DNA of 64,000 nucleotides from positions 8,960 to 72,959 of the forward strand of contig JAFGGA010000136.1 in NCBI GenBank assembly GCA_016930835.1, given 5' to 3'. The notes beneath the pieces were generated by a model that worked only from the letters and a program-made list of their open reading frames with translations, was not told the origin of the DNA and searched no databases. Positions 1 to 7,423 of this stretch are shown here, one piece after another. The stretch comes from Deltaproteobacteria bacterium (GTDB lineage: Bacteria > Desulfobacterota > DSM-4660 > Desulfatiglandales > HGW-15). Within the stretch, counting starts at the first letter, position 1. Each line of letters begins with the position of its first letter. The position numbers were made by a program, and so were the translations under genes.

Positions 1-5
1 CCTTA

Positions 6-28
6 TCCCCTCCCATCAAGGGAGGGGA
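6..28. repeat. GC-rich hairpin CCCCTCCC-N5-GGGAGGGG
   Basis: Perfect 8-bp stem (7-14 / 20-27) with a 5-nt loop. The same CCCCTCCC...GGGAGG(GG) motif recurs at 5433-5503 and 31208-31225. Confidence 0.5.
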
Positions 29-210
29 AAGGAATTGGCTGAATTTATAAACTCTTTCAATATCGATGCATCATAGGATGCCTGATCAAAATGGTCGCCC
101 CCCTGTATCCAGCAAATGACTTATGGGGCATGATCAGCCCGTAAAAGGGGAAGGGATTTCGGGTATTTTTGGATGATCTCTAGGAAAACTTATAGCAATA
201 GGAGGCAACC

Positions 211-813
211 ATGAAATTGAGTCAAAAACAAAAGGAATTTTTGGGCTATATCTCCCGTTATGTGGATGAATGGGGGCATTCCCCCAGTTTTGACGAAATA
301 TGCGCCCATTTTGGTTTTAACTCCTATAACACGGTCACCACCTATCTCAAGATCCTGGAACGAAAAGGTTATGTTCGGCTTCCCGGTAAAAACCGAAAGC
401 GGGCCATCGAGGTCATCAGCCCTGTGGAAACACGGCGGTTTGAGTTCCCTCTCCTGGGAAAGGTGGCCGGCGGAAAACCCATTGAGGCCATCGAAGACGT
501 GAACGTGATCGAGGTCCCGCCCTCCATGATCGGAAAAGGGGACCACTTTGTCCTGCAGGTCAAGGGATCATCCATGGAGGATGACGGGATCCTGGACGGT
601 GATTTTGTGGTGATCCGCAGGCAGGCCACCGCGGAAAACGGCGAGACCGTCGTGGCCCTCCTCAACAACGAGGCCACGGTCAAGCGATATTACAAGACCA
701 ATGGCCGCGTGGAACTCCGCCCCGCACACAAGGGTATGGAATCCATATGGGTTGATGAAGGTGATCTCCACATTCAAGGTAAGGTGGTGGGGGTGATGAG
801 GCATTATAGATAA
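211..813 (+). CDS. lexA: LexA repressor (S24 peptidase)
   Basis: 200-aa ORF. N-terminal winged helix (YNTVTTYLKILERKGYV), cleavage region VAGG, catalytic Ser context GSSMEDDGI, Lys in ATVKRYY. GGAGG SD upstream of the ATG. Confidence 0.95.
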   Translation: MKLSQKQKEFLGYISRYVDEWGHSPSFDEICAHFGFNSYNTVTTYLKILERKGYVRLPGKNRKRAIEVISPVETRRFEFPLLGKVAGGKPIEAIEDVNVIEVPPSMIGKGDHFVLQVKGSSMEDDGILDGDFVVIRRQATAENGETVVALLNNEATVKRYYKTNGRVELRPAHKGMESIWVDEGDLHIQGKVVGVMRHYR

Positions 814-820
814 GGCGCAG

Positions 821-857
821 GGTATAAGGTGTACGGTTTACGGTATAAGGTTTAAGG
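821..857 (+). repeat. Tandem heptamer array, left arm (TATAAGG TGTACGG TTTACGG TATAAGG TTTAAGG)
   Basis: Five consecutive 7-mers of pattern TNTAMGG read directly at 823-857. Complementary to the array at 1242-1269. The last unit forms the AAGGAGG SD of the next ORF. Confidence 0.85.
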
Positions 858-867
858 AGGAAGAATA

Positions 868-1224
868 ATGGGGGATTTTCAAAAGCTTAAGGTTTGGAAG
901 CGTGCGAAGGACCTAGCTGTTTCAATTTATAAAGCGACCGGGAAAGGTTCATTCCTTAAAGATTATAACCTCAAAGATCAGATTCGGCGGGCTGCCATTT
1001 CGATCCCAAGCAATATAGCAGAGAGGGATGAATTGGGAACCAACAGACAATCCATAAAGTTTTTTCGTATTGCAAAAGGCTCTGCTGCCGAACTATTCAA
1101 TCAAACTATTATAGCCTTTGAAATTGGTTATTTTACACAACCTCAATTTGAGCAAGTTAAAGAGGAATGCCAGGCGATTTCAAGCATGTTGCCAAGGCTA
1201 ATTCATGTAAGAGCAAAATATTAA
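868..1224 (+). CDS. Four-helix-bundle protein (23S rRNA intervening-sequence protein family)
   Basis: 118-aa ORF with family-typical motifs: FQKLKVWKRAKDLAVSIY, IRRAAISIPSNIAE, AKGSAAEL. Strong SD. Confidence 0.85.
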   Translation: MGDFQKLKVWKRAKDLAVSIYKATGKGSFLKDYNLKDQIRRAAISIPSNIAERDELGTNRQSIKFFRIAKGSAAELFNQTIIAFEIGYFTQPQFEQVKEECQAISSMLPRLIHVRAKY

Positions 1225-1240
1225 GCATCGCTCAATACTC

Positions 1241-1271
1241 ACCGTATACCTTATACCGTACACCGTGAACC
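1241..1271 (+). repeat. Tandem heptamer array, right arm (CCGTATA CCTTATA CCGTACA CCGTGAA), inverse of 821-857
   Basis: Four consecutive 7-mers that are reverse complements of the TNTAMGG units, starting about 17 nt after the ORF stop. Confidence 0.85.
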
Positions 1272-1346
1272 TTTCCCCTCACGCCTTTTATCCCTCAGCA
1301 AAGAGGTTTATTTATAAATTTTATACGGAAAAAGGAAGATAAAAAC

Positions 1347-2507
1347 TTGCGTAATATCATTCATCTCCACATCCCTTCCTTCCAAATCACCTTGGAACGG
1401 GTGAATCGTCTTGAGCTTCGGGATCGGCCCGTGGTGGTGGCGCCGGCCCATTCAGAACGGGCCCTGATCCTTTCCGTATCCCGCGAGGCCCGAAGGGAAG
1501 GAATCTTCAAGGGCATGGCCCTGAACAAGGCCCTGCGGTTCTGTCCGGATCTGACGGTTTTACCCCCTAATCCCGGGCTTATGGAAAAGGGAACCCAGGC
1601 CCTTACCGAGGCCGTGGCTCATTATACCCCCCTGTGGGAACCGGCCCAGCCTGGTCACATGTACATGGATGTCACGGGAACAGAGCGTCTGTGGGGGCGG
1701 GCCAAAGACGCGGCCCGACGTATCGGCAAGGAGATGAAGGATCGCCTCTCTCTTCCAGGCGCCGTCGGCGTCGCCGGCAACAAGATGGTTTCCGGCATCG
1801 CATCGCGGCTCATGGCTACGGAAGGGGTGCTGGATGTGGATCATGGCCGGGAGTCCGCGTTTATGGCTCCGCTCAAGGTAGATTTTCTGCCTGGCATCGG
1901 CCATGTGAGAAAGAGGGTCCTCCTGGAGGAACTCCATATCACCCTGGTTAGGGAAATCGCTGTTTTGGATATGCAGCATTTGAAGATGGTTTTTGGCATG
2001 CAGGCCCTTATGATCCATCAACGGGCATGGGGAATCGACCCCACACCGGTCCACCCCCCTGAAAGAAAACCCATGGTGAGCGAGAGCATCACCCTTGCCC
2101 GTGATGAGAACGATGACTATAAACTCCTGGCAACCCTGTATGCCATGGTGGAAAAATGTGGGCAACGGCTTCGAAGCAGATCCTTGGTTCCCCGGCATGC
2201 CGGCCTGTTGATTCGATATTCCGATCAGATGGAGGTGGCGCGGCAAGTCAAATTGAACGGCGCGACCTTTTACGATATGGATCTCTATGCCCCTTTGGAG
2301 ATGATTTTTTACAAGGCTTACCAGCGCCGAGTCGGTATCCGTTTTATGCGGGTGTGGTTTCGGGATCTTATAGTCCCTTCGCCTCAACTCTCACTTTTTT
2401 CGAGGACTCCTGCATATGACGGCAAAAAAGCCCCGGTGACAAATGCCTTGGATCGCATCCGGGAGCGGTATGGAGAAAAAGCTATAAAATATGGAAGAGC
2501 GGTATAA
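1347..2507 (+). CDS. imuB: ImuB-like inactive Y-family DNA polymerase
   Basis: 386-aa ORF with overall DinB/Y-family layout. The catalytic DMDAFFASVE-type motif is replaced by HLHIPSFQITLE, as in ImuB. TTG start per ORF track with AAGGAAG upstream. Lies immediately upstream of dnaE2. Confidence 0.8.
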   Translation: MRNIIHLHIPSFQITLERVNRLELRDRPVVVAPAHSERALILSVSREARREGIFKGMALNKALRFCPDLTVLPPNPGLMEKGTQALTEAVAHYTPLWEPAQPGHMYMDVTGTERLWGRAKDAARRIGKEMKDRLSLPGAVGVAGNKMVSGIASRLMATEGVLDVDHGRESAFMAPLKVDFLPGIGHVRKRVLLEELHITLVREIAVLDMQHLKMVFGMQALMIHQRAWGIDPTPVHPPERKPMVSESITLARDENDDYKLLATLYAMVEKCGQRLRSRSLVPRHAGLLIRYSDQMEVARQVKLNGATFYDMDLYAPLEMIFYKAYQRRVGIRFMRVWFRDLIVPSPQLSLFSRTPAYDGKKAPVTNALDRIRERYGEKAIKYGRAV

Positions 2508-2605
2508 GGTTTACGGTCTACGGTTTACGGATGGAAACTATACATCTTGCCTTAACCCGTATACCGTACACCGTATATCATACACCTTATACCGTACAAC
2601 ATAAG
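2501..2605 (+). repeat. Inverted heptamer-array hairpin without cargo (4 units TNTACGG/TATAAGG, 19-nt spacer, 8 units CCKTAYA)
   Basis: TATAAGG TTTACGG TCTACGG TTTACGG at 2503-2530. CCTTAAC CCGTATA CCGTACA CCGTATA TCATACA CCTTATA CCGTACA ACATAAG at 2550-2605. The left arm overlaps the imuB stop codon (2505-2507). Confidence 0.85.
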
Positions 2606-2617
2606 CCGAGTCTAGCT

Positions 2618-5600
2618 ATGATCAATTTTATCCACCTCCATGTCCATTCTCATTTTTCCAAGGGCTGGGGCATAGGCTCCATTGAGGAACTCTGTCAATG
2701 CGCCCGGGCCTATCACATGGACCGGTTCGCCCTGACCGACACCAACGGCCTTTACGGACTGGTCTTCTTTGTTCAGAGCGCCATGGAGATGGGCATCAAG
2801 CCTATTGTGGGCAGTGAGATCGTATGCGACAATCACCGGGCCGTCCTGCTGGTGCGCGGCCATGAAGGGTATGCCAATCTCTGCCGGATTATATCCGACC
2901 GGCATTGCCATGAAGATTTCGACCTGATCCAATCGCTCAGACAGCGTCGCAATGGGCTCATCATCTTTTCCGACGACTTCCGTCTGCTCAAGGTCCTAAA
3001 GAAAGATGCCTTGGAAGATCTTTATGTGGAGATGTCGCCGGGTTACAGCATGCATTCCTGCTATGCATTCTCACGCGAGAGCGGCATCCCGCCCTTAGCC
3101 ACCAACCGGGTCTATCTGGTTCACAAAGATCAATGTCCGCTCCATCGAATACTCCGGGCCGTGGCCCTCAACAGCAAGCTGTCGCGTTTGACACCGAATG
3201 ACACGTGTAGGGAACATGGTTTTTTTAATTCTTCGCAGGCCATGATCGACCAGTTTCCCCATGCACCCCAAGCCATCCACAATACGGCTAAGGTGGCGGA
3301 CCAATGCATGATAAACTGGGATTTTAGCGGCGTCATCTTTCCGAGCTTTCAGGAGATGTCGGACAGGGAGGCCTTTGACCGTCTATATCAGGCCACGCTG
3401 GAAGGATGCAAGTGGCGGTACGGAGAGATCACCCCGGTTGTCCGGGAGCGCATAGATCATGAGATGCGGATCATCCGGGAAAAGAATTTTGCCCATTATT
3501 TTCTGGTGGTGGCCGATATCACGAAAAAGGCACAACGATCATGCGGAAGGGGGAGTGCCGCGGCGTCCATTGTTTCCTATGCCCTGGGCATCACCCACGT
3601 GGACCCCATCAAACATCATCTTTTTTTTGAACGGTTTTTAAATCCCGGACGGGTCGATCCTCCGGATATTGATGTGGACTTTGCATGGGATGAAAGAGAA
3701 CAGGTGATCGACTATGTTTTTGCACGGCATGGAAACCAACGGGCCGCCATGGTGGCCAACCATAACACCTATGGGGCCCGGTCGGCCGTTCGTGAGGTGG
3801 CCAAGGTTTTTGGCCTGACGGACGCGGAGATCGGTCGGGTGACCGACCGTATCGGATTCGGCTGGCGGCTAAAGAAGACCTGGAAAGAGCTGAAAACCCA
3901 TCCCAAGATGCGTGACGTGGAATTCAAAGAGCCATGGGATGATATCCTGGCCGCGGCCGTGCAACTGGAGGATCACCTGAATCATCTGTCCGTCCATTGC
4001 GGGGGCCTGGTGGTGGTGCCGGATGAGATACGCCGTTACTGCCCCGTGGAGATCTCCGCAAACGGGGCCCAGGTCCTTCAGTGGGAAAAGGATTCCGTGG
4101 AAGAGGCTGGCCTTGTCAAGATTGATATCCTGGGTAACCGCAGTTTGGCGGTCATTCGTGATGCATTGGCTTTGGTGGAAAAGAATTATGGTATTCGGAT
4201 CGATTACGCCACCTGGGACCCTATCCAGGACCCCGACACCGTGGAGATCTTTTATCAGGGTGATACATTCGGGGTGTTTTATTTTGAGAGCCCGGCCACC
4301 CGTCAGGTCCTGACCAAGGTAGCCAGCGGCCTGACCTTGGATACATACCGCACTCTGGATCATTTTCATCTCAACGTGGTGGTTACATCCATTATCCGTC
4401 CGGCGTCCAACCAGAGCATACGAACCTGGGTATCCAGACTCCACGGTCAGGCATGGGATGCCCCTCATCCCCTTTTACGCCCCGTGTTGGAAGAGACCCT
4501 GGGTGTCATGGTATTCCAGGAGCAATTGAGCCAGGCCGCCATCTGCATGGCTGGCTTTGACGCAGCCGAGGCCGATATGTTGCGCAAGGTGGTGAGCAAG
4601 AAGCACAGGGAGAAAAAGCTCAAGGATTTTCACACCCGGTTTATCAAGGGGGCCTCTGAGAGGGGGGTAACCACGGAGGTGATCGAAGATGTCTGGCAGA
4701 TGATGATGGGTTTTGACGGTTATAGTTTCTGCAAGCCCCATTCAGCCAGCTATACCCTGGTGGCCTACAAGTCAGCCTTTCTCCGGGCCCATTACCCGGC
4801 GGAATTTATGGCCTCGGTCATCTCAAACGGCGGCGGTTACTACTCCACCTTCGGTTATATATCCGAGGCAAAACGCATGGGTCTCCGTGTCCTTCCGCCG
4901 GACATCAATCTCAGTGAAGTCAAGTATATGGGTAAAGATCGCGACATCCGTGTGGGACTTATGCAGTTGAAAGAGCTTTCTCACGAGGCCAAGGAGGTCA
5001 TTGTGTTTGACCGTTCGCGAAACGGCCCATTCCTGTCCCTGGATGATTTTTTAAGGCGTATCGGACACCACATGCATTTTCAAGACGTCAGAATTTTAAT
5101 CAAGGCGGGCTGCTTTGATAGTATTAATCAGGGTATTGATCGGCCCGGCCTGGTGTGGAAGGCCCTGCGATTCTTTGACACCCATGCCCAAACCCTTCCC
5201 CCTCGCAGGTTATGTCGTAACGAAAAGCAGGTCATTCTCCAACAAAAGAATCAGGATCTTCGACCGAACGAGCAATGTCATGCATTGCAAGATCCGGAAT
5301 CCAGGCATGCAAAACCATTCCAAAAATATCTATTCAATTCTCATAAAGATTCGCCACCCATGGAGCCCCTTCCTTTTTTGTCGAACAACTTTCCATCCAT
5401 TTCTCCCTCATCCGGAGGGAAGAGCTCGTCACTTCTCCCCTCCCCCGGCGGGAGGAACGCGCCATTTCTCCCCTCCCCTAGCGGGAGGGGTTGGGAGAGG
5501 GGGTTGAATGAAAAACCCCCTTATCCCAAACACATCATGCTTAAGCACGAATCCGAGACCCTGGGTTTCATCCTTTCGATGCACCCTCTGGAGCTTTATC

Positions 5601-5956
5601 AAGATATCCTAAAAGAGCTGAACCTCATACACGCCAAAGATCTTGATAAGCATGTGGGTAAATATATCACCATCATCGGCTGGCTCGTGACCGGCAAGAC
5701 CGTGCTTACCAAGGCCGGTGACCCCATGAAGTTCATCTCTTTTGAAGACACCACCGGAATCTATGAGGCCGTGTTCTTCCCTAAGGTCTATAATCGATAT
5801 TGCCACATGCTTAATGCGTCACGACCTTATTTGATCAAGGGAAGGGTCGAGAAGGATTTTGGGTCTGTGAATGTGAATGTAAATTGGGTGGAGTTTTTGG
5901 ATCGACATAAAAAAAATAAAGATTATCGAAATCTGAAAATAACGGCGAAGCCTTGA
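2618..5956 (+). CDS. dnaE2: Error-prone DNA polymerase III alpha-like subunit DnaE2
   Basis: PHP motif INFIHLHVHSHFS at the N-terminus, GRGSAAASIVSYALGITHVDP, PPDIDVDF, C-terminal OB-fold region. The track ORF starts at 2531, but those 29 codons translate the heptamer array, so I prefer the ATG at 2618. Confidence 0.9.
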   Translation: MINFIHLHVHSHFSKGWGIGSIEELCQCARAYHMDRFALTDTNGLYGLVFFVQSAMEMGIKPIVGSEIVCDNHRAVLLVRGHEGYANLCRIISDRHCHEDFDLIQSLRQRRNGLIIFSDDFRLLKVLKKDALEDLYVEMSPGYSMHSCYAFSRESGIPPLATNRVYLVHKDQCPLHRILRAVALNSKLSRLTPNDTCREHGFFNSSQAMIDQFPHAPQAIHNTAKVADQCMINWDFSGVIFPSFQEMSDREAFDRLYQATLEGCKWRYGEITPVVRERIDHEMRIIREKNFAHYFLVVADITKKAQRSCGRGSAAASIVSYALGITHVDPIKHHLFFERFLNPGRVDPPDIDVDFAWDEREQVIDYVFARHGNQRAAMVANHNTYGARSAVREVAKVFGLTDAEIGRVTDRIGFGWRLKKTWKELKTHPKMRDVEFKEPWDDILAAAVQLEDHLNHLSVHCGGLVVVPDEIRRYCPVEISANGAQVLQWEKDSVEEAGLVKIDILGNRSLAVIRDALALVEKNYGIRIDYATWDPIQDPDTVEIFYQGDTFGVFYFESPATRQVLTKVASGLTLDTYRTLDHFHLNVVVTSIIRPASNQSIRTWVSRLHGQAWDAPHPLLRPVLEETLGVMVFQEQLSQAAICMAGFDAAEADMLRKVVSKKHREKKLKDFHTRFIKGASERGVTTEVIEDVWQMMMGFDGYSFCKPHSASYTLVAYKSAFLRAHYPAEFMASVISNGGGYYSTFGYISEAKRMGLRVLPPDINLSEVKYMGKDRDIRVGLMQLKELSHEAKEVIVFDRSRNGPFLSLDDFLRRIGHHMHFQDVRILIKAGCFDSINQGIDRPGLVWKALRFFDTHAQTLPPRRLCRNEKQVILQQKNQDLRPNEQCHALQDPESRHAKPFQKYLFNSHKDSPPMEPLPFLSNNFPSISPSSGGKSSSLLPSPGGRNAPFLPSPSGRGWERGLNEKPPYPKHIMLKHESETLGFILSMHPLELYQDILKELNLIHAKDLDKHVGKYITIIGWLVTGKTVLTKAGDPMKFISFEDTTGIYEAVFFPKVYNRYCHMLNASRPYLIKGRVEKDFGSVNVNVNWVEFLDRHKKNKDYRNLKITAKP
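5401..5503 (+). repeat. Three tandem ~33-bp GC-rich hairpin units embedded in frame in dnaE2
   Basis: TTCTCCCTCATCCGGAGGGAAG (5401-), TTCTCCCCTCCCCCGGCGGGAGG (5433-), TTCTCCCCTCCCCTAGCGGGAGGGG (5466-). Period about 33 nt = 11 codons. Translated as ISPSSGGKSSS / LLPSPGGRNAPF / LPSPSGRGWERG. Confidence 0.8.
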
Positions 5957-6023
5957 AATAGGTGGGCACATTTCTGGTTGATAAGTTGAGACTTTTGTAA
6001 GTCCCCATAAGTTATACTATCTT

Positions 6024-6140
6024 ATCATTCCGGTCCTGTATCTGGTAGGGGTAAAATACAGCAGGATTTTAGTGAATCCAGGGATTTTTTGGATTCCTCC
6101 AGATCGAATCCGGGACAGGTTTTGTCAATCCCGGAATGAT
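6024..6140. repeat. Nested inverted-repeat element (MITE-like or structured RNA)
   Basis: Terminal IR ATCATTCCGG (6024-6033) / CCGGAATGAT (6131-6140). Inner pairs CCTGT/ACAGG, ATCTGG/CCAGAT, GAATCCA/TGGATTC. Intergenic, about 70 nt after the dnaE2 stop. Confidence 0.5.
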
Positions 6141-6448
6141 GGACAGGGAAATTTCGCGAAGAACTCAAAATGATGGAATGCTTTTACGTGAAAAGTGCTG
6201 TTCAAATAAAACCTGTAAAGTCAATAACTTTGGCCCTTCTCTCCTAGTATTCCTTTTTTTGTATCGATCATGACATTATGTAATGATTGACTATCATTTT
6301 AAAATGTACTATACATCGAGTTGAAAAAAGATTGTTCCCTAATCATTTATACCTTATCCTCGTGCTCTGAGGATGAATCCGCAATAAAATATTTTTGGCG
6401 TATTACTGGTTGGTCCCACATTAAAATCCATCAAAAGGAGGTATTAAG

Positions 6449-7423
6449 ATGATGAATATCAAAAGAAAAATTCTAGGCGTCTTTTTAGTCATTCTGAGCG
6501 TGTTATTTTTAGGAAGTTGTGTAAGTGAGGAGGAGTATATTCAGAAATCTCAAGAAAATGATAAGCTTTATTTCCAATTAGCGGAATTGAAGTATGAACA
6601 CGGTAAATTATTGGGAGAAAAGTCCCAACTGGAAGCCGCTAAAAGGGATTTGGAATTAGCCAATGCAAACCAGGGAAAAAAGATCGATGAACTCAATCAA
6701 GATAATTCCGAATTGCAAAAAATATTAGCGGCCAGATCAGATTCATTAAGCAAGACAATCGTTTCATTAAGAAGTGATATTGATGATCTGAAAAACGAGA
6801 ACACCGGACAAAAAGCACAACTTGCTGAAAGAAATATGGAAATTGAAAAGCTTTTAAAGGAGATCAACTCTTTAAATGAGAGGAACAAAGCTCTTCAGGA
6901 CCAAGCCGCGGAATTGGAACGACAAAAGCAGCAGGAAATGGCCAATATGAAAGGCACCTATGAAGATCTTTTGCAAGACATGAAATCAGAGATCGATAAA
7001 GGCAAGATCACCATCACACAATTGGAAGGGAAATTAAAGGTGAATATGTTGGATGAGATCTTGTTTGACTCCGGCAAGGTTACCATTAAGCCTGAAGGAA
7101 TCGAGGTGCTGGAACGGGTCGGAAATATCCTGGTAAATGTCAAAGATCGATCCATAAACATAGAAGGGCATACAGATAATGTTCCCATCGGCGCCGAGCT
7201 TGCTAAAATATATCCCACAAACTGGGAGCTTTCCGCGGCGAGAGCAAGCAATGTGGCGCGATATCTGCAAGAAAAAGCGGGTATTTCCCCTGAATTACTT
7301 TCAGCTACCGGCTATGGTGAATATCAACCGGTTGCCTCCAATGACACAACCGAGGGCAAAGCCAAGAATAGACGGATCGAAATCGTGCTTGTTCCCCGCG
7401 AGATTACACCGATTGCCAGATAA
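6449..7423 (+). CDS. OmpA/MotB-domain lipoprotein with long coiled-coil
   Basis: Signal peptide with lipobox LGSC. Heptad-rich central region. C-terminal OmpA-like motif NIEGHTDNVPIG...NWELSAARASNVARYL...NRRIEIVL. AAGGAGG SD. Confidence 0.9.
   Translation: MMNIKRKILGVFLVILSVLFLGSCVSEEEYIQKSQENDKLYFQLAELKYEHGKLLGEKSQLEAAKRDLELANANQGKKIDELNQDNSELQKILAARSDSLSKTIVSLRSDIDDLKNENTGQKAQLAERNMEIEKLLKEINSLNERNKALQDQAAELERQKQQEMANMKGTYEDLLQDMKSEIDKGKITITQLEGKLKVNMLDEILFDSGKVTIKPEGIEVLERVGNILVNVKDRSINIEGHTDNVPIGAELAKIYPTNWELSAARASNVARYLQEKAGISPELLSATGYGEYQPVASNDTTEGKAKNRRIEIVLVPREITPIAR

What the first reader, a model, noticed from the sequence alone, without database searches (positions are those of the whole stretch)
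813..1280. IVS-like cassette: a four-helix-bundle gene in the loop of an inverted heptamer array, inserted between lexA and imuB
Seen: five tandem heptamers TATAAGG TGTACGG TTTACGG TATAAGG TTTAAGG (823-857) start 10 nt after the lexA stop. The inverse array CCGTATA CCTTATA CCGTACA CCGTGAA (1242-1269) starts about 17 nt after the stop of the 118-aa ORF. The last left-hand unit supplies that ORF's Shine-Dalgarno. Established: this protein family (PF05635/TIGR02436 type) was first found as the ORF inside 23S rRNA intervening sequences, which are bracketed by complementary arms forming an RNase III-cleaved stem. Inference: the same architecture (complementary arms with an ORF in the loop) sits here inside a protein-coding SOS operon, in the slot where imuA usually lies. 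It may be a mobile and/or RNase-III-processed module that uncouples lexA from imuB-dnaE2 mRNA. I am not aware of this arrangement having been described in an mRNA context.
Basis: partly seen in the sequence, partly recalled or inferred. Interest (0 to 1): 0.78.

Follow-up and report, generated by a model that had tools for sequence, protein, structure and literature searches.

The report
Self-recognising hairpin cassette in SOS operon
A small gene between lexA and the error-prone polymerase genes is bracketed by mirror-image runs of a 7-base repeat that its own protein (relatives form five-part rings) appears to read base by base. This suggests a first concrete, testable function for a very large family of "unknown" proteins first found inside ribosomal RNA genes.

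Summary
A PF05635/TIGR02436 four-helix-bundle gene (868-1224) lies between lexA and an imuB-like gene. It is flanked by (GGNNNNN)n at 814-857 and the inverse array at 1242-1285. The arms pair at -52 kcal/mol (z -6).

This is not a recent insertion. About 30 related Desulfobacterota operons carry lexA-4HB-imuB-dnaE2, and the gene is under purifying selection (dN/dS about 0.1). The architecture is general: 63 of 84 non-redundant homologue loci from several phyla have both arrays, against 0.35% of control positions. Arms most often hold five GG at 7-nt spacing.

The arms are not exact mirror copies and show no G-U bias. Instead the repeat follows the protein. Residue 59 is Asn where units are GGT and Asp where they are GGC. 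This held in 54 of 54 loci, with many independent switches, no link to GC content, and also in gene-less hairpins.

Homologues crystallise as pentamers, so I infer one pentamer per five-site arm. The cassette shares the architecture of ORF-bearing 23S rRNA intervening sequences. RNase III processing and mobility remain inferences.

The parts
211..813 (+). lexA (LexA DNA-binding domain plus S24 peptidase). Its stop codon TAA (811-813) directly abuts the first GG of the left arm.
814..857 (+). Left arm: GGCGCAG GGTATAA GGTGTAC GGTTTAC GGTATAA GGTTTAA GG, i.e. 7 GG at 7-nt spacing. Units are of the GGT type.
852..858 (+). Shine-Dalgarno sequence AAGGAGG of the 4HB gene, formed by the last repeat unit. 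It lies just inside the predicted stem.
   Evidence: reading of the sequence and of the fold
868..1224 (+). Four-helix-bundle protein gene (118 aa, PF05635/TIGR02436, Avd-like, pI 9.8). GC is 39.5% against 52-55% in the flanking genes.
1042..1044 (+). Codon 59 (AAC, Asn). Across homologues this residue covaries with base 3 of the flanking heptamers (Asn with GGT, Asp with GGC).
1242..1285 (+). Right arm: CCGTATA CCTTATA CCGTACA CCGTGAA CCTTTCC CCTCACG CC, i.e. 7 CC at 7-nt spacing, the inverse of the left-arm unit family.
1347..2507 (+). imuB-like Y-family polymerase gene (IMS plus IMS_C domains). Its stop codon TAA (2505-2507) lies inside the first heptamer GGTATAA of the second hairpin.
2501..2530 (+). 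Left arm of the gene-less hairpin: GGTATAA GGTTTAC GGTCTAC GGTTTAC GG (5 GG). It uses the same GGT-type units as the cassette.
2531..2556 (+). 26-nt loop of the gene-less hairpin. It is probably what remains after loss of an ORF, but this is inferred only from deletion derivatives seen in relatives.
2557..2603 (+). Right arm of the gene-less hairpin: CCGTATA CCGTACA CCGTATA TCATACA CCTTATA CCGTACA.
2618..5956 (+). dnaE2-like polymerase III alpha gene. The likely start is ATG 2618 (MINFIHLH...), matching the start of homologues. The ORF listing extends it to ATG 2531, which would read through the repeat arm.

Best explanation
Positions 814-1285 are a self-contained cassette of a widespread family. 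It consists of a gene for a basic, Avd-like four-helix-bundle protein flanked by two inverted arrays of the heptamer GGYNYAN. These arrays are the protein's own recognition sites.

**Shown here**
- The architecture is conserved across phyla.
- The protein is under purifying selection.
- The cassette has no promoter-like or terminator-like site of its own and is usually co-oriented with its neighbours.
- Arms most often hold five GG-phased sites.
- Protein residue 59 switches Asn/Asp exactly when repeat base 3 switches T/C.
- Gene-less hairpins arise by internal deletion of the ORF and still follow the residue-59 rule of the resident protein.

**Inferred**
- The protein acts as a homopentamer, as its crystallised homologues do. 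One ring engages one five-site arm, one subunit per unit, using the conserved face that carries residue 59.
- In the lexA-4HB-imuB-dnaE2 transcript the two arms also zip into a duplex of about 35-44 bp. This is the kind of duplex RNase III cuts in ORF-bearing 23S rRNA IVSs.
- The cassette and its gene-less copy at 2501-2603 would therefore act as protein-addressable hairpin boundaries. They would split or stabilise the three parts of the operon mRNA and gate translation of the 4HB gene itself.
- On evolutionary time the cassettes are gained, replaced and eroded at operon junctions.

**Rough likelihoods**
- Specific protein-repeat recognition: about 0.8.
- Pentamer matched to a five-site arm: about 0.5.
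- RNA stem with RNase III processing: about 0.4.
For: **Architecture**
- 67 of 89 homologue loci (63 of 84 after removing duplicates) have at least 3 period-7 GG upstream and at least 3 period-7 CC downstream. Control positions score 0.35%, and no locus shows the opposite polarity alone.
- Arm size peaks sharply at 5 GG: 95 arrays with 4, 189 with 5 and 40 with 6. The peak holds both next to genes and elsewhere.

**Protein**
- The AlphaFold model has pLDDT 91. It matches 2gsc (TM 0.9), 2rld, and bAvd 4dwl / 8ub7 (TM about 0.8).
- 2gsc and 2rld each have five chains. The literature describes toroidal or barrel pentamers and RNA binding by Avd.
- pI is 9.8. dN/dS is 0.06-0.17.

**Recognition**
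- Asn59 goes with GGT (373 of 468 units) and Asp59 with GGC (330 of 407 units). All 54 classifiable loci agree, and mutual information is 1.0 bit against a null 95th percentile of 0.32.
- N/D needs at least 16 changes on the protein tree. Sequence distance within a class (0.360) is about the same as between classes (0.369).
- The split is unrelated to GC content; the best GC threshold predicts the class with accuracy 0.56.
- Three loci fetched independently: two (L110, L112) follow the rule, and the third (L109) is another subfamily with different units.
- Gene-less hairpins in the same genomes also fit: Asp genomes have 75 C vs 10 T, Asn genomes 34 T vs 1 C.
- Repeat similarity tracks 4HB identity and not LexA identity. 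The partial correlations are -0.55 and +0.07.
- Divergent paralogues within one locus carry different repeats.

**Hairpin and operon context**
- Arm-arm duplex energy is -51.9 kcal/mol (z -6.0) at the cassette and -42.3 kcal/mol (z -5.0) at the gene-less hairpin.
- No promoter-like or terminator-like site lies within 813-1346 on the + strand.
- The gene is co-oriented with both neighbours in 35 loci and antisense to both in 7.
- The Coxiella IVS has heptamers, a 28-bp stem and an RNase III cut.

**Deletion derivatives**
- L111 keeps both arms and the first 19 codons of the ORF.
- L108 is an internal deletion of the L109-type cassette.
Against: - No binding experiment exists. Covariation shows coupling, not the chemistry or the form of nucleic acid bound (ssRNA, ssDNA, dsDNA or the duplex).
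- The pentamer is taken from homologues and was not tested for this protein. The match between five sites and five subunits could be coincidence, and this window's own cassette arms have 7 GG, not 5.
- The NJ tree of a 118-aa protein is noisy, so '16 or more switches' is an upper-leaning estimate.
- The sample is biased to proteins at least 55% identical to the query. The family has 11,838 clusters at 50% identity.
- For the RNA-stem part, wobble-compatible mismatches show no strand bias (129 vs 129) and unit order is not mirrored between arms. The stem may therefore be a by-product of two arrays of one unit family.
- A few Asp loci have mixed C/T arrays (L009, L022, L064), and L011 does not fit well.
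Confidence: 0.6

Rival explanations
1. Pure RNA-processing module. The arms exist only to form an RNase III stem that excises the ORF from the operon transcript, as in a 23S rRNA IVS. The protein has nothing to do with the arms.
For: - The arms give a strong predicted duplex.
- The Coxiella IVS is an experimental precedent: a 28-bp stem cut by RNase III.
- The cassette is embedded in an operon with no signals of its own.
Against: - It does not explain why the arms are tandem heptamers.
- It does not explain why arm size peaks at five sites.
- It does not explain why unit base 3 follows protein residue 59, including in gene-less hairpins.
- Mismatches show no G-U over A-C excess, and unit order is not mirrored between arms.
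Confidence: 0.15
2. DNA-level mobile element. The two arrays are terminal inverted repeats made of multiple protein-binding sites. The 4HB protein binds both ends, one ring per end, and uses host enzymes to move or copy the cassette into operon junctions and rRNA helices. Gene-less hairpins are non-autonomous, MITE- or REPIN-like derivatives moved in trans.
For: - Both arms obey the residue-59 rule symmetrically.
- There is no strand-specific wobble bias.
- Gene-less copies match the resident protein.
- 162 further arrays were found in 557 kb of related loci, against 13 expected.
- Orthologous junctions hold different occupants: 4HB, another 4HB subfamily, GxxExxY cassettes, or remnants.
- The gene has low GC relative to its flanks.
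- The protein is at least 55% identical across phyla.
Against: - No catalytic domain is present and no transposase or integrase is linked to the cassette.
- No target-site duplication is visible, because cassettes fill the whole spacer.
- SOS-linked copies are mostly inherited vertically.
- The strong co-orientation with host genes would need extra selection to explain.
Confidence: 0.2
3. Domesticated operon component. The 4HB protein is an accessory of the ImuB/DnaE2 mutasome, taking the place of ImuA, by analogy with Avd as cofactor of the mutagenic DGR reverse transcriptase.
For: - The position between lexA and imuB is conserved in about 30 operons, with purifying selection.
- SOS-linked copies cluster together.
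- The fold resembles Avd.
Against: - Near-identical family members (55-66% identity) sit in many unrelated junctions with the same arrays.
- SOS-linked copies are barely more alike than unlinked ones (0.68 vs 0.61).
- Some operons have lost the gene (L108, L111) or carry a truncated copy (L112).
- The same junctions also host unrelated GxxExxY cassettes.
Confidence: 0.04
4. Chance simple-sequence filler unrelated to the gene.
For: Heptanucleotide repeats are the commonest long simple repeats in many bacteria (PMC4679880).
Against: - 12 pattern hits against 0.01 expected.
- 75% of homologue loci have both arrays, against 0.35% of control positions.
- The arrays covary with the protein.
Confidence: 0.01

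Closest known systems
ORF-bearing intervening sequences of 23S rRNA (Leptospira, Coxiella burnetii; Ralph and McClelland 1993; Warrier et al. 2016, PMC4990558)
   Same: - The ORF encodes the same protein family (PF05635).
- The ORF is enclosed by complementary termini that form a stem of about 28-30 bp.
- Tandem heptamers lie just upstream of the ORF, with copy number varying between Coxiella strains.
- The element is transcribed as part of a host transcript and has lower GC than the host.
   Different: - This cassette sits in a protein-coding SOS operon, not in helix 9, 25 or 45 of 23S rRNA.
- The ORF is under strong purifying selection, whereas the Coxiella ORF is decaying and apparently untranslated.
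- Both arms are explicit heptamer arrays.
- RNase III cleavage is not shown here.
- The link between the protein and its repeat unit has not been reported for IVSs, as far as seven literature searches show.
Avd, accessory protein of diversity-generating retroelements (PDB 4DWL, 8UB7)
   Same: Four-helix-bundle fold (TM about 0.8), basic charge, pentameric barrel, and direct RNA binding in the DGR ribonucleoprotein.
   Different: - Sequence identity is only about 11%.
- No reverse transcriptase or template/variable repeats lie in the operon. The rest of the window was not scanned for one.
- Avd is not known to read tandem heptamers.
REP / RAYT (REPIN) systems (from my own knowledge: Nunvar 2010; Bertels and Rainey 2011)
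   Same: - A single-copy gene is flanked by inverted copies of a short repeat.
- The same repeat occurs as many gene-less hairpins in intergenic regions of operons.
- Repeat and protein coevolve within a genome.
   Different: - The protein is a non-catalytic helical bundle, not an HUH/Y1 transposase.
- The repeats are tandem heptamer arrays, not single palindromes.
TRAP, the trp RNA-binding attenuation protein (from my own knowledge)
   Same: This is an analogy of mechanism only. A ring oligomer reads as many short tandem repeats as it has subunits, and binding competes with an RNA secondary structure and with the Shine-Dalgarno sequence.
   Different: The fold is unrelated (an 11-mer beta-sheet ring), the repeats are triplets, and TRAP's function is established. 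For the 4HB protein, ring-on-repeats binding is an inference.
Other intergenic heptanucleotide repeats: cyanobacterial STRR (own knowledge) and TAACTGA repeats of Beggiatoaceae (PMC4679880)
   Same: Tandem 7-nt units in intergenic regions, often just upstream of start codons.
   Different: Those are described as direct repeats with no linked gene. No connection to PF05635 proteins is reported. Whether they belong to the same system was not tested.

Membership tests
PF05635 / TIGR02436 four-helix-bundle protein (23S rRNA IVS protein, Avd-like) | Profile match above the curated cut-off | tested here: met
   PF05635 scores 108.3 bits against a cut-off of 33.8. TIGR02436 scores 105.7 bits against 24.
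PF05635 / TIGR02436 four-helix-bundle protein (23S rRNA IVS protein, Avd-like) | Up-down four-helix-bundle fold like 2GSC, 2RLD and 4DWL | tested here: met
   The AlphaFold model has pLDDT 91 and four long helices. Foldseek gives 2gsc TM 0.90, 2rld TM 0.80-0.82 and 4dwl TM 0.80.
PF05635 / TIGR02436 four-helix-bundle protein (23S rRNA IVS protein, Avd-like) | Conserved motif GxxRxxxSxxxNxxE (PMC3936711) | tested here: met
   R41, S45, N49 and E52 are present in QIRRAAISIPSNIAE. The first G is Q38. S45, N49 and E52 are invariant in 34 homologues.
PF05635 / TIGR02436 four-helix-bundle protein (23S rRNA IVS protein, Avd-like) | Homopentameric ring | not testable with these tools
   Known only for homologues. 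2gsc and 2rld have five chains each. The literature describes a toroidal homopentamer and a pentameric barrel.
ORF-bearing 23S rRNA intervening sequence | Inserted in a 23S rRNA helix (9, 25 or 45) | tested here: not met
   The cassette lies between lexA and imuB. Rfam finds no rRNA in window 1-6500, nor in 18 related loci.
ORF-bearing 23S rRNA intervening sequence | Complementary termini forming a long stem that encloses the ORF | tested here: met
   The arms pair in the MFE and centroid folds. Duplex energy is -51.9 kcal/mol, z -6.0.
ORF-bearing 23S rRNA intervening sequence | Excision from the host transcript by RNase III | not testable with these tools
   This needs RNA end mapping in wild type and an rnc mutant. 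The precedent is for rRNA only.
REP/RAYT (REPIN)-type system | The gene flanked by inverted repeats encodes an HUH/Y1 transposase | tested here: not met
   The only Pfam and NCBIfam hits are to the four-helix-bundle family.
REP/RAYT (REPIN)-type system | Gene-less copies of the same repeat hairpin dispersed in intergenic regions | tested here: met
   One copy lies in this window (2501-2603). A further 162 arrays occur in 557 kb of related loci against 13 expected, mostly intergenic.
imuA-imuB-dnaE2 SOS mutagenesis cassette | LexA-linked Y-family polymerase (imuB) followed by dnaE2 | tested here: met
   Pfam domains of the three ORFs. The same gene order occurs in about 30 relatives.
imuA-imuB-dnaE2 SOS mutagenesis cassette | imuA gene upstream of imuB | tested here: not met
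   The only ORF between lexA and imuB is the PF05635 gene. Whether it substitutes for ImuA was not tested.
Diversity-generating retroelement | Avd-like gene next to a reverse transcriptase and template/variable repeats | tested here: not met
   The operon genes are lexA, imuB and dnaE2 by Pfam. The remaining 56 kb of the window was not scanned for a reverse transcriptase.

The most novel reading that the evidence does not exclude
PF05635 'four-helix-bundle / IVS' proteins are ring-shaped readers of tandem heptamers that follow a simple residue-to-base rule (Asn59 for T/U, Asp59 for C). Together with their arrays they form a large, previously unrecognised class of autonomous hairpin cassettes, with gene-less satellites. 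These cassettes colonise operon junctions in many phyla, and the classical ORF-bearing 23S rRNA IVSs are the rRNA-resident members of this class.
Probability: 0.4. Interest if true: 0.9.

Novelty: new variant of a known kind. Interest (0 to 1): 0.8.

Why it matters
The PF05635/TIGR02436 family is very large: 11,838 clusters at 50% identity match this one protein. It has had no known function since it was found in rRNA intervening sequences in 1993. Its only characterised relative is Avd of diversity-generating retroelements.

The results here turn 'unknown' into a precise, cheap experiment. Does a pentamer bind five GGYNYAN units, and does N59D switch the preference from GGT to GGC?

If this holds, several things follow:
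- It explains why these genes interrupt operons, including cas operons (PMC3936711), guaB-guaA-like junctions and this SOS operon, without harming them.
- It links the rRNA IVSs to a much wider element class.
- It accounts for many intergenic heptamer arrays.
- It may offer a small protein scaffold whose nucleic-acid specificity can be reprogrammed.

For this operon, it predicts that lexA, the 4HB gene, imuB and dnaE2 are separated by two protein-addressable hairpins. These could set the relative levels of the repressor and the mutagenic polymerases.

Tried and rejected
1. **Test for RNA-level selection on the sense strand.** In the best DNA-level arm alignments of 68 loci, mismatches that would be G-U on the sense strand equal those that would be G-U on the antisense strand (129 vs 129). 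There are also 206 transversions. This gives no support for a stem kept by wobble-tolerant selection.
2. **Test for true mirror repeats.** Shuffling the order of units in the right arm does not lower the complementarity (44 loci, mean z -0.13, Wilcoxon p 0.30). The arms are complementary only at the level of the unit family.
3. **Search for a bare lexA-imuB junction.** Of six further operons looked up, two lack the gene. Both carry a remnant hairpin instead (L111, L108). No empty site was found.
4. **Target-site duplications.** None are visible, because cassettes fill the whole spacer from the stop codon to the next start.
5. **Rfam.** No known RNA family lies in window 1-6500, and no rRNA context appears in 18 related loci.
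6. **Promoter and terminator scan.** Nothing lies within 813-1346 on the + strand.
7. **GC content as a cause of the Asn/Asp-T/C link.** Rejected (0.469 vs 0.474, p 0.59).
8. **Other residue-base pairs.** Unit position 5 shows weaker signals with residues 26, 28, 99 and 102 (mutual information 0.5-0.7 against a null of 0.47). These were not clean enough to claim.
9. **Literature.** Seven searches found no description of heptamer-flanked PF05635 cassettes outside the Coxiella IVS.
10. **Loop of the gene-less hairpin as an ORF remnant.** I compared the loop at 2531-2556 with 4HB gene ends by eye only and saw no convincing similarity.
Full report
**1. What is in the window**

Positions 211-813 encode LexA. 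Positions 868-1224 encode a 118-aa PF05635/TIGR02436 four-helix-bundle (4HB) protein. Positions 1347-2507 encode an ImuB-like Y-family polymerase, and 2618-5956 a DnaE2-like polymerase.

Directly after the lexA stop codon the sequence reads GGCGCAG GGTATAA GGTGTAC GGTTTAC GGTATAA GGTTTAA GG (814-857). It ends in the Shine-Dalgarno sequence AAGGAGG of the 4HB gene. Seventeen nt after the 4HB stop codon the inverse array begins: CCGTATA CCTTATA CCGTACA CCGTGAA CCTTTCC CCTCACG CC (1242-1285).

Tandem Repeats Finder reports the arrays. The arms pair in the MFE and centroid folds. The arm-arm duplex is -51.9 kcal/mol against -28.0 +/- 4.0 for shuffled arms.

A second inverted pair of the same units lies between imuB and dnaE2 (2501-2530 and 2557-2603). 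It has a 26-nt loop and no gene. Its hairpin folds with z -4.8 and its arm-arm duplex is -42.3 kcal/mol with z -5.0. The imuB stop codon lies inside its first unit.

No promoter-like or terminator-like site lies between lexA and imuB on the + strand. No Rfam family matches. The 4HB gene is a compositional island, at 39.5% GC against 52-55% in its neighbours.

**2. The architecture is general**

I fetched 80 loci from GTDB genomes and 26 from metagenomes that encode homologues, mostly 55-85% identical.

- Of 89 loci with full flanks, 67 have at least three GG at 7-nt spacing upstream and at least three CC at 7-nt spacing downstream. Control positions in the same loci score 0.35%, and no locus has the opposite polarity alone.
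- After removing duplicates, the figure is 24 of 25 for SOS-operon loci and 39 of 59 for loci in other contexts.
- Carriers include Desulfobacterota, Bacteroidota, Cyanobacteria, Nitrospirota and others.
- The unit consensus is GGYNYAN, with genome-specific variants such as GGTATAA, GGCGCAA, GGTGCAC and GGCGTTA.
- Outside the SOS operon, the gene is co-oriented with both neighbours in 35 loci and antisense to both in 7. Spacers are short. It therefore usually sits inside operons.
- Others have noted PF05635 genes interspersed in cas operons (PMC3936711).

**3. History at this operon**

About 30 fetched loci have lexA-4HB-imuB-dnaE2. LexA is 70-82% identical across them.

- Their 4HB proteins cluster together: the nearest neighbour is also SOS-linked in 32 of 33 cases.
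- 4HB identity correlates with LexA identity (Spearman 0.49).
- dN/dS is 0.06-0.17.

The gene is therefore an old, functional resident of the operon, not a recent insertion.

The junctions still turn over. The imuB-dnaE2 spacer of relatives holds one of several things:
- a gene-less GG/CC hairpin (most loci);
- a 4HB gene (L085);
- an unrelated GxxExxY/PD-(D/E)XK cassette with its own inverted repeats, intact in L007, L031, L082 and L086 and truncated in L008, L027 and L108.

I looked up six more operons through ImuB homologues, and two lack the 4HB gene. L111 keeps both arrays and the first 19 codons of the gene, fused to the right arm. L108 carries a hairpin of (NNTCAGC)4 / (GCTGANN)4. This is an internal deletion of the cassette present in its relative L109, which encodes a different 4HB subfamily.

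Gene-less hairpins thus arise by loss of the ORF. I found no truly bare junction. Gene-less arrays are common elsewhere in the fetched loci: 162 in 557 kb against 13 expected, mostly intergenic.

**4. What the arms are**

Two tests for a stem maintained base by base gave no support.

- In DNA-level alignments of the two arms (68 loci, 81% complementary), mismatches that would be G-U on the sense strand equal those that would be G-U on the antisense strand (129 vs 129).
- Shuffling the order of unit variants within the right arm does not reduce complementarity (44 loci, mean z -0.13, p 0.30).

The arms are therefore two arrays of one unit family in opposite orientation. They pair well because the units are alike. 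They are not exact inverted copies.

Array size is quantised: 95 arrays have 4 GG, 189 have 5 and 40 have 6. The same peak appears next to genes and in gene-less arrays. Slippage alone would not give a sharp mode.

Unit variants are shared between the two junctions of one genome (distance 0.60 within genomes against 1.43 between, permutation p < 1e-4). Divergent 4HB paralogues within one locus carry quite different repeats. Among SOS operons, repeat similarity follows 4HB identity (partial correlation -0.55, p < 0.0005) and not LexA identity (+0.07).

**5. The protein reads the repeat**

Mutual information between protein alignment columns and the majority base at each unit position singles out one pair.

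- Residue 59 is Asn in this window, in the conserved loop ...NIAERDELGT**N**RQ... at the start of helix 3. It pairs with unit base 3.
- Asn59 proteins are flanked by GGT units (373 of 468 units; 17 are C).
- Asp59 proteins are flanked by GGC units (330 of 407 units; 41 are T).
- All 54 loci with a 70% majority agree. Mutual information is 1.0 bit, or 0.90 at a looser threshold, against a null 95th percentile of 0.32.
- Both arms obey the rule, in SOS and in other contexts.

The split is not two old clades.
- With site 59 removed, distance within a class is 0.360 and between classes 0.369.
- The N/D character needs at least 16 changes on an NJ tree, against 28 for random labels. The tree is noisy, but several switches lie within tight groups.
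- GC content does not separate the classes (0.469 vs 0.474, p 0.59).

Three loci fetched independently were checked. L110 has Asp with GGC and L112 has Asn with GGT, so both follow the rule. L109 belongs to the other subfamily and carries other units.

Gene-less hairpins between imuB and dnaE2 follow the residue of the 4HB gene 1.3 kb upstream. Asp genomes have 75 C and 10 T; Asn genomes have 34 T and 1 C. This window fits the rule: Asn59, GGT-type units in both hairpins.

Repeated, coupled switches of one side chain and one base are what direct, base-specific contact predicts.

Further properties of the protein:
- It is basic (pI 9.8).
- The AlphaFold model (pLDDT 91) is a four-helix bundle matching 2gsc (TM 0.9), 2rld and Avd 4dwl / 8ub7.
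- These homologues are pentameric rings, and Avd binds RNA.
- Residue 59 lies on the end of the bundle that also carries the invariant N-terminus and the S45/N49/E52 motif.

**6. How it most likely works**

*Shown:* the cassette is a unit of gene plus cognate repeats. It is transcribed with its host operon. It decays into gene-less hairpins that stay matched to the resident protein.

*Inferred, with rough likelihoods:*
- The arrays are binding sites of the 4HB protein (0.8).
- One pentamer covers one five-site arm, one subunit per GG-phased unit (0.5).
- In the transcript the arms form a duplex of about 35-44 bp that RNase III cuts, as in the Coxiella and Leptospira IVSs. This would split lexA, 4HB and imuB-dnaE2 mRNAs, with protein binding modulating the process and the gene's own translation, since the last unit is the Shine-Dalgarno sequence (0.4).

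The main rival is a DNA-level model in which the arrays are protein-bound terminal repeats of a mobile element and the gene-less copies are its satellites (0.2). The symmetric obedience of both arms and the absence of strand bias favour it. The lack of any catalytic partner and the mostly vertical history argue against it.

A role as an ImuA substitute is unlikely (0.04). Equally similar proteins sit in many unrelated junctions, and some SOS operons have lost the gene.

**7. Relation to what is known**

The protein is a member of PF05635/TIGR02436. The cassette shares the architecture of ORF-bearing 23S rRNA IVSs. The Coxiella IVS even has tandem heptamers before its ORF and a 28-bp stem cut by RNase III. 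The cassette fails the defining location in rRNA, and processing was not tested.

It works like a REP/RAYT system in layout (a gene flanked by inverted repeats, plus many gene-less copies) but has no transposase. The proposed ring-on-repeats binding resembles TRAP by analogy only.

Seven literature searches found no report of this architecture outside rRNA, nor of the protein-repeat covariation. The library lacks most subscription papers, so prior description cannot be excluded.

**8. Caveats**

- All functional statements rest on comparative sequence evidence.
- The sample is biased to close homologues within a family of at least 11,838 clusters at 50% identity.
- The rest of the source genome could not be scanned.
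- The pentameric state is borrowed from homologues.
- The form of nucleic acid bound is unknown.

Noticed in passing
L007 1740-2357, L031 5638-6230, L082 5659-6109, L086 5129-5672; truncated in L008, L027/L091 and L108 3660-3880: In relatives, the imuB-dnaE2 spacer (an empty hairpin in this window) can hold a different small cassette. It is a GxxExxY protein gene (TIGR04256, PF13366, PD-(D/E)XK fold) flanked by its own inverted repeats, CACCACAGAGGCACGGAG ... CTCTGTGTCTCTGTGGTG. Internal-deletion remnants also occur. This looks like a second cassette family with the same lifestyle.
   Followed up: partly
window 5397-5490 and 7-27: A G+C-rich palindrome, CCCCTCCC(N4-6)GGGAGGGG, is embedded in a 33-nt unit repeated 2.8 times in frame inside dnaE2, where it encodes ...SPSSGGKSSSLLPSPGGRNAPFLPSPSGRGWERG.... 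It also occurs once upstream of lexA (4 matches against 0.28 expected). It looks like a REP-like element tolerated inside a coding region.
   Followed up: partly
L109 1995-2510 and L108 2385-2480; L004 5150-5800; L043 4300-4950; L049 750-1400: Other PF05635 subfamilies (27-39% identical to this protein) are flanked by different tandem repeats: NNTCAGC / GCTGANN, GGCACAGA-like, GAGGAACT-like and AGCTGAT-like. Some have periods of about 8-9 nt. In L109 the right arm overlaps the last codons of the gene.
   Followed up: partly
L032, L034, L036, L074 (match at 4001-4351 in each): The same cassette sits in another conserved junction. Reading the flanks by eye, this looks like guaB (ending ...EAPNYRLE) followed by guaA (starting MDIHSQKILILDFGS...). 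The gene identities were not checked with a tool.
   Followed up: no
L112 1997-2293: The SOS-operon 4HB gene of this relative has a premature stop (98 aa), with the rest of the reading frame still recognisable after it. The operon also lacks dnaE2 after imuB. This is an example of cassette decay.
   Followed up: no
window 2531-2617: The ORF listing starts dnaE2 at ATG 2531, inside the hairpin loop, which would translate the right repeat arm (…RIPYTVYHTPYTVQH…). Homologues start at the position of ATG 2618, so the extension is probably spurious.
   Followed up: partly
All fetched loci, L002-L097: The 4HB genes have lower GC than their surroundings on average (0.41 against 0.47). Many homologues lie on very short contigs. 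Both points fit a multi-copy, repeat-flanked element that breaks assemblies.
   Followed up: no
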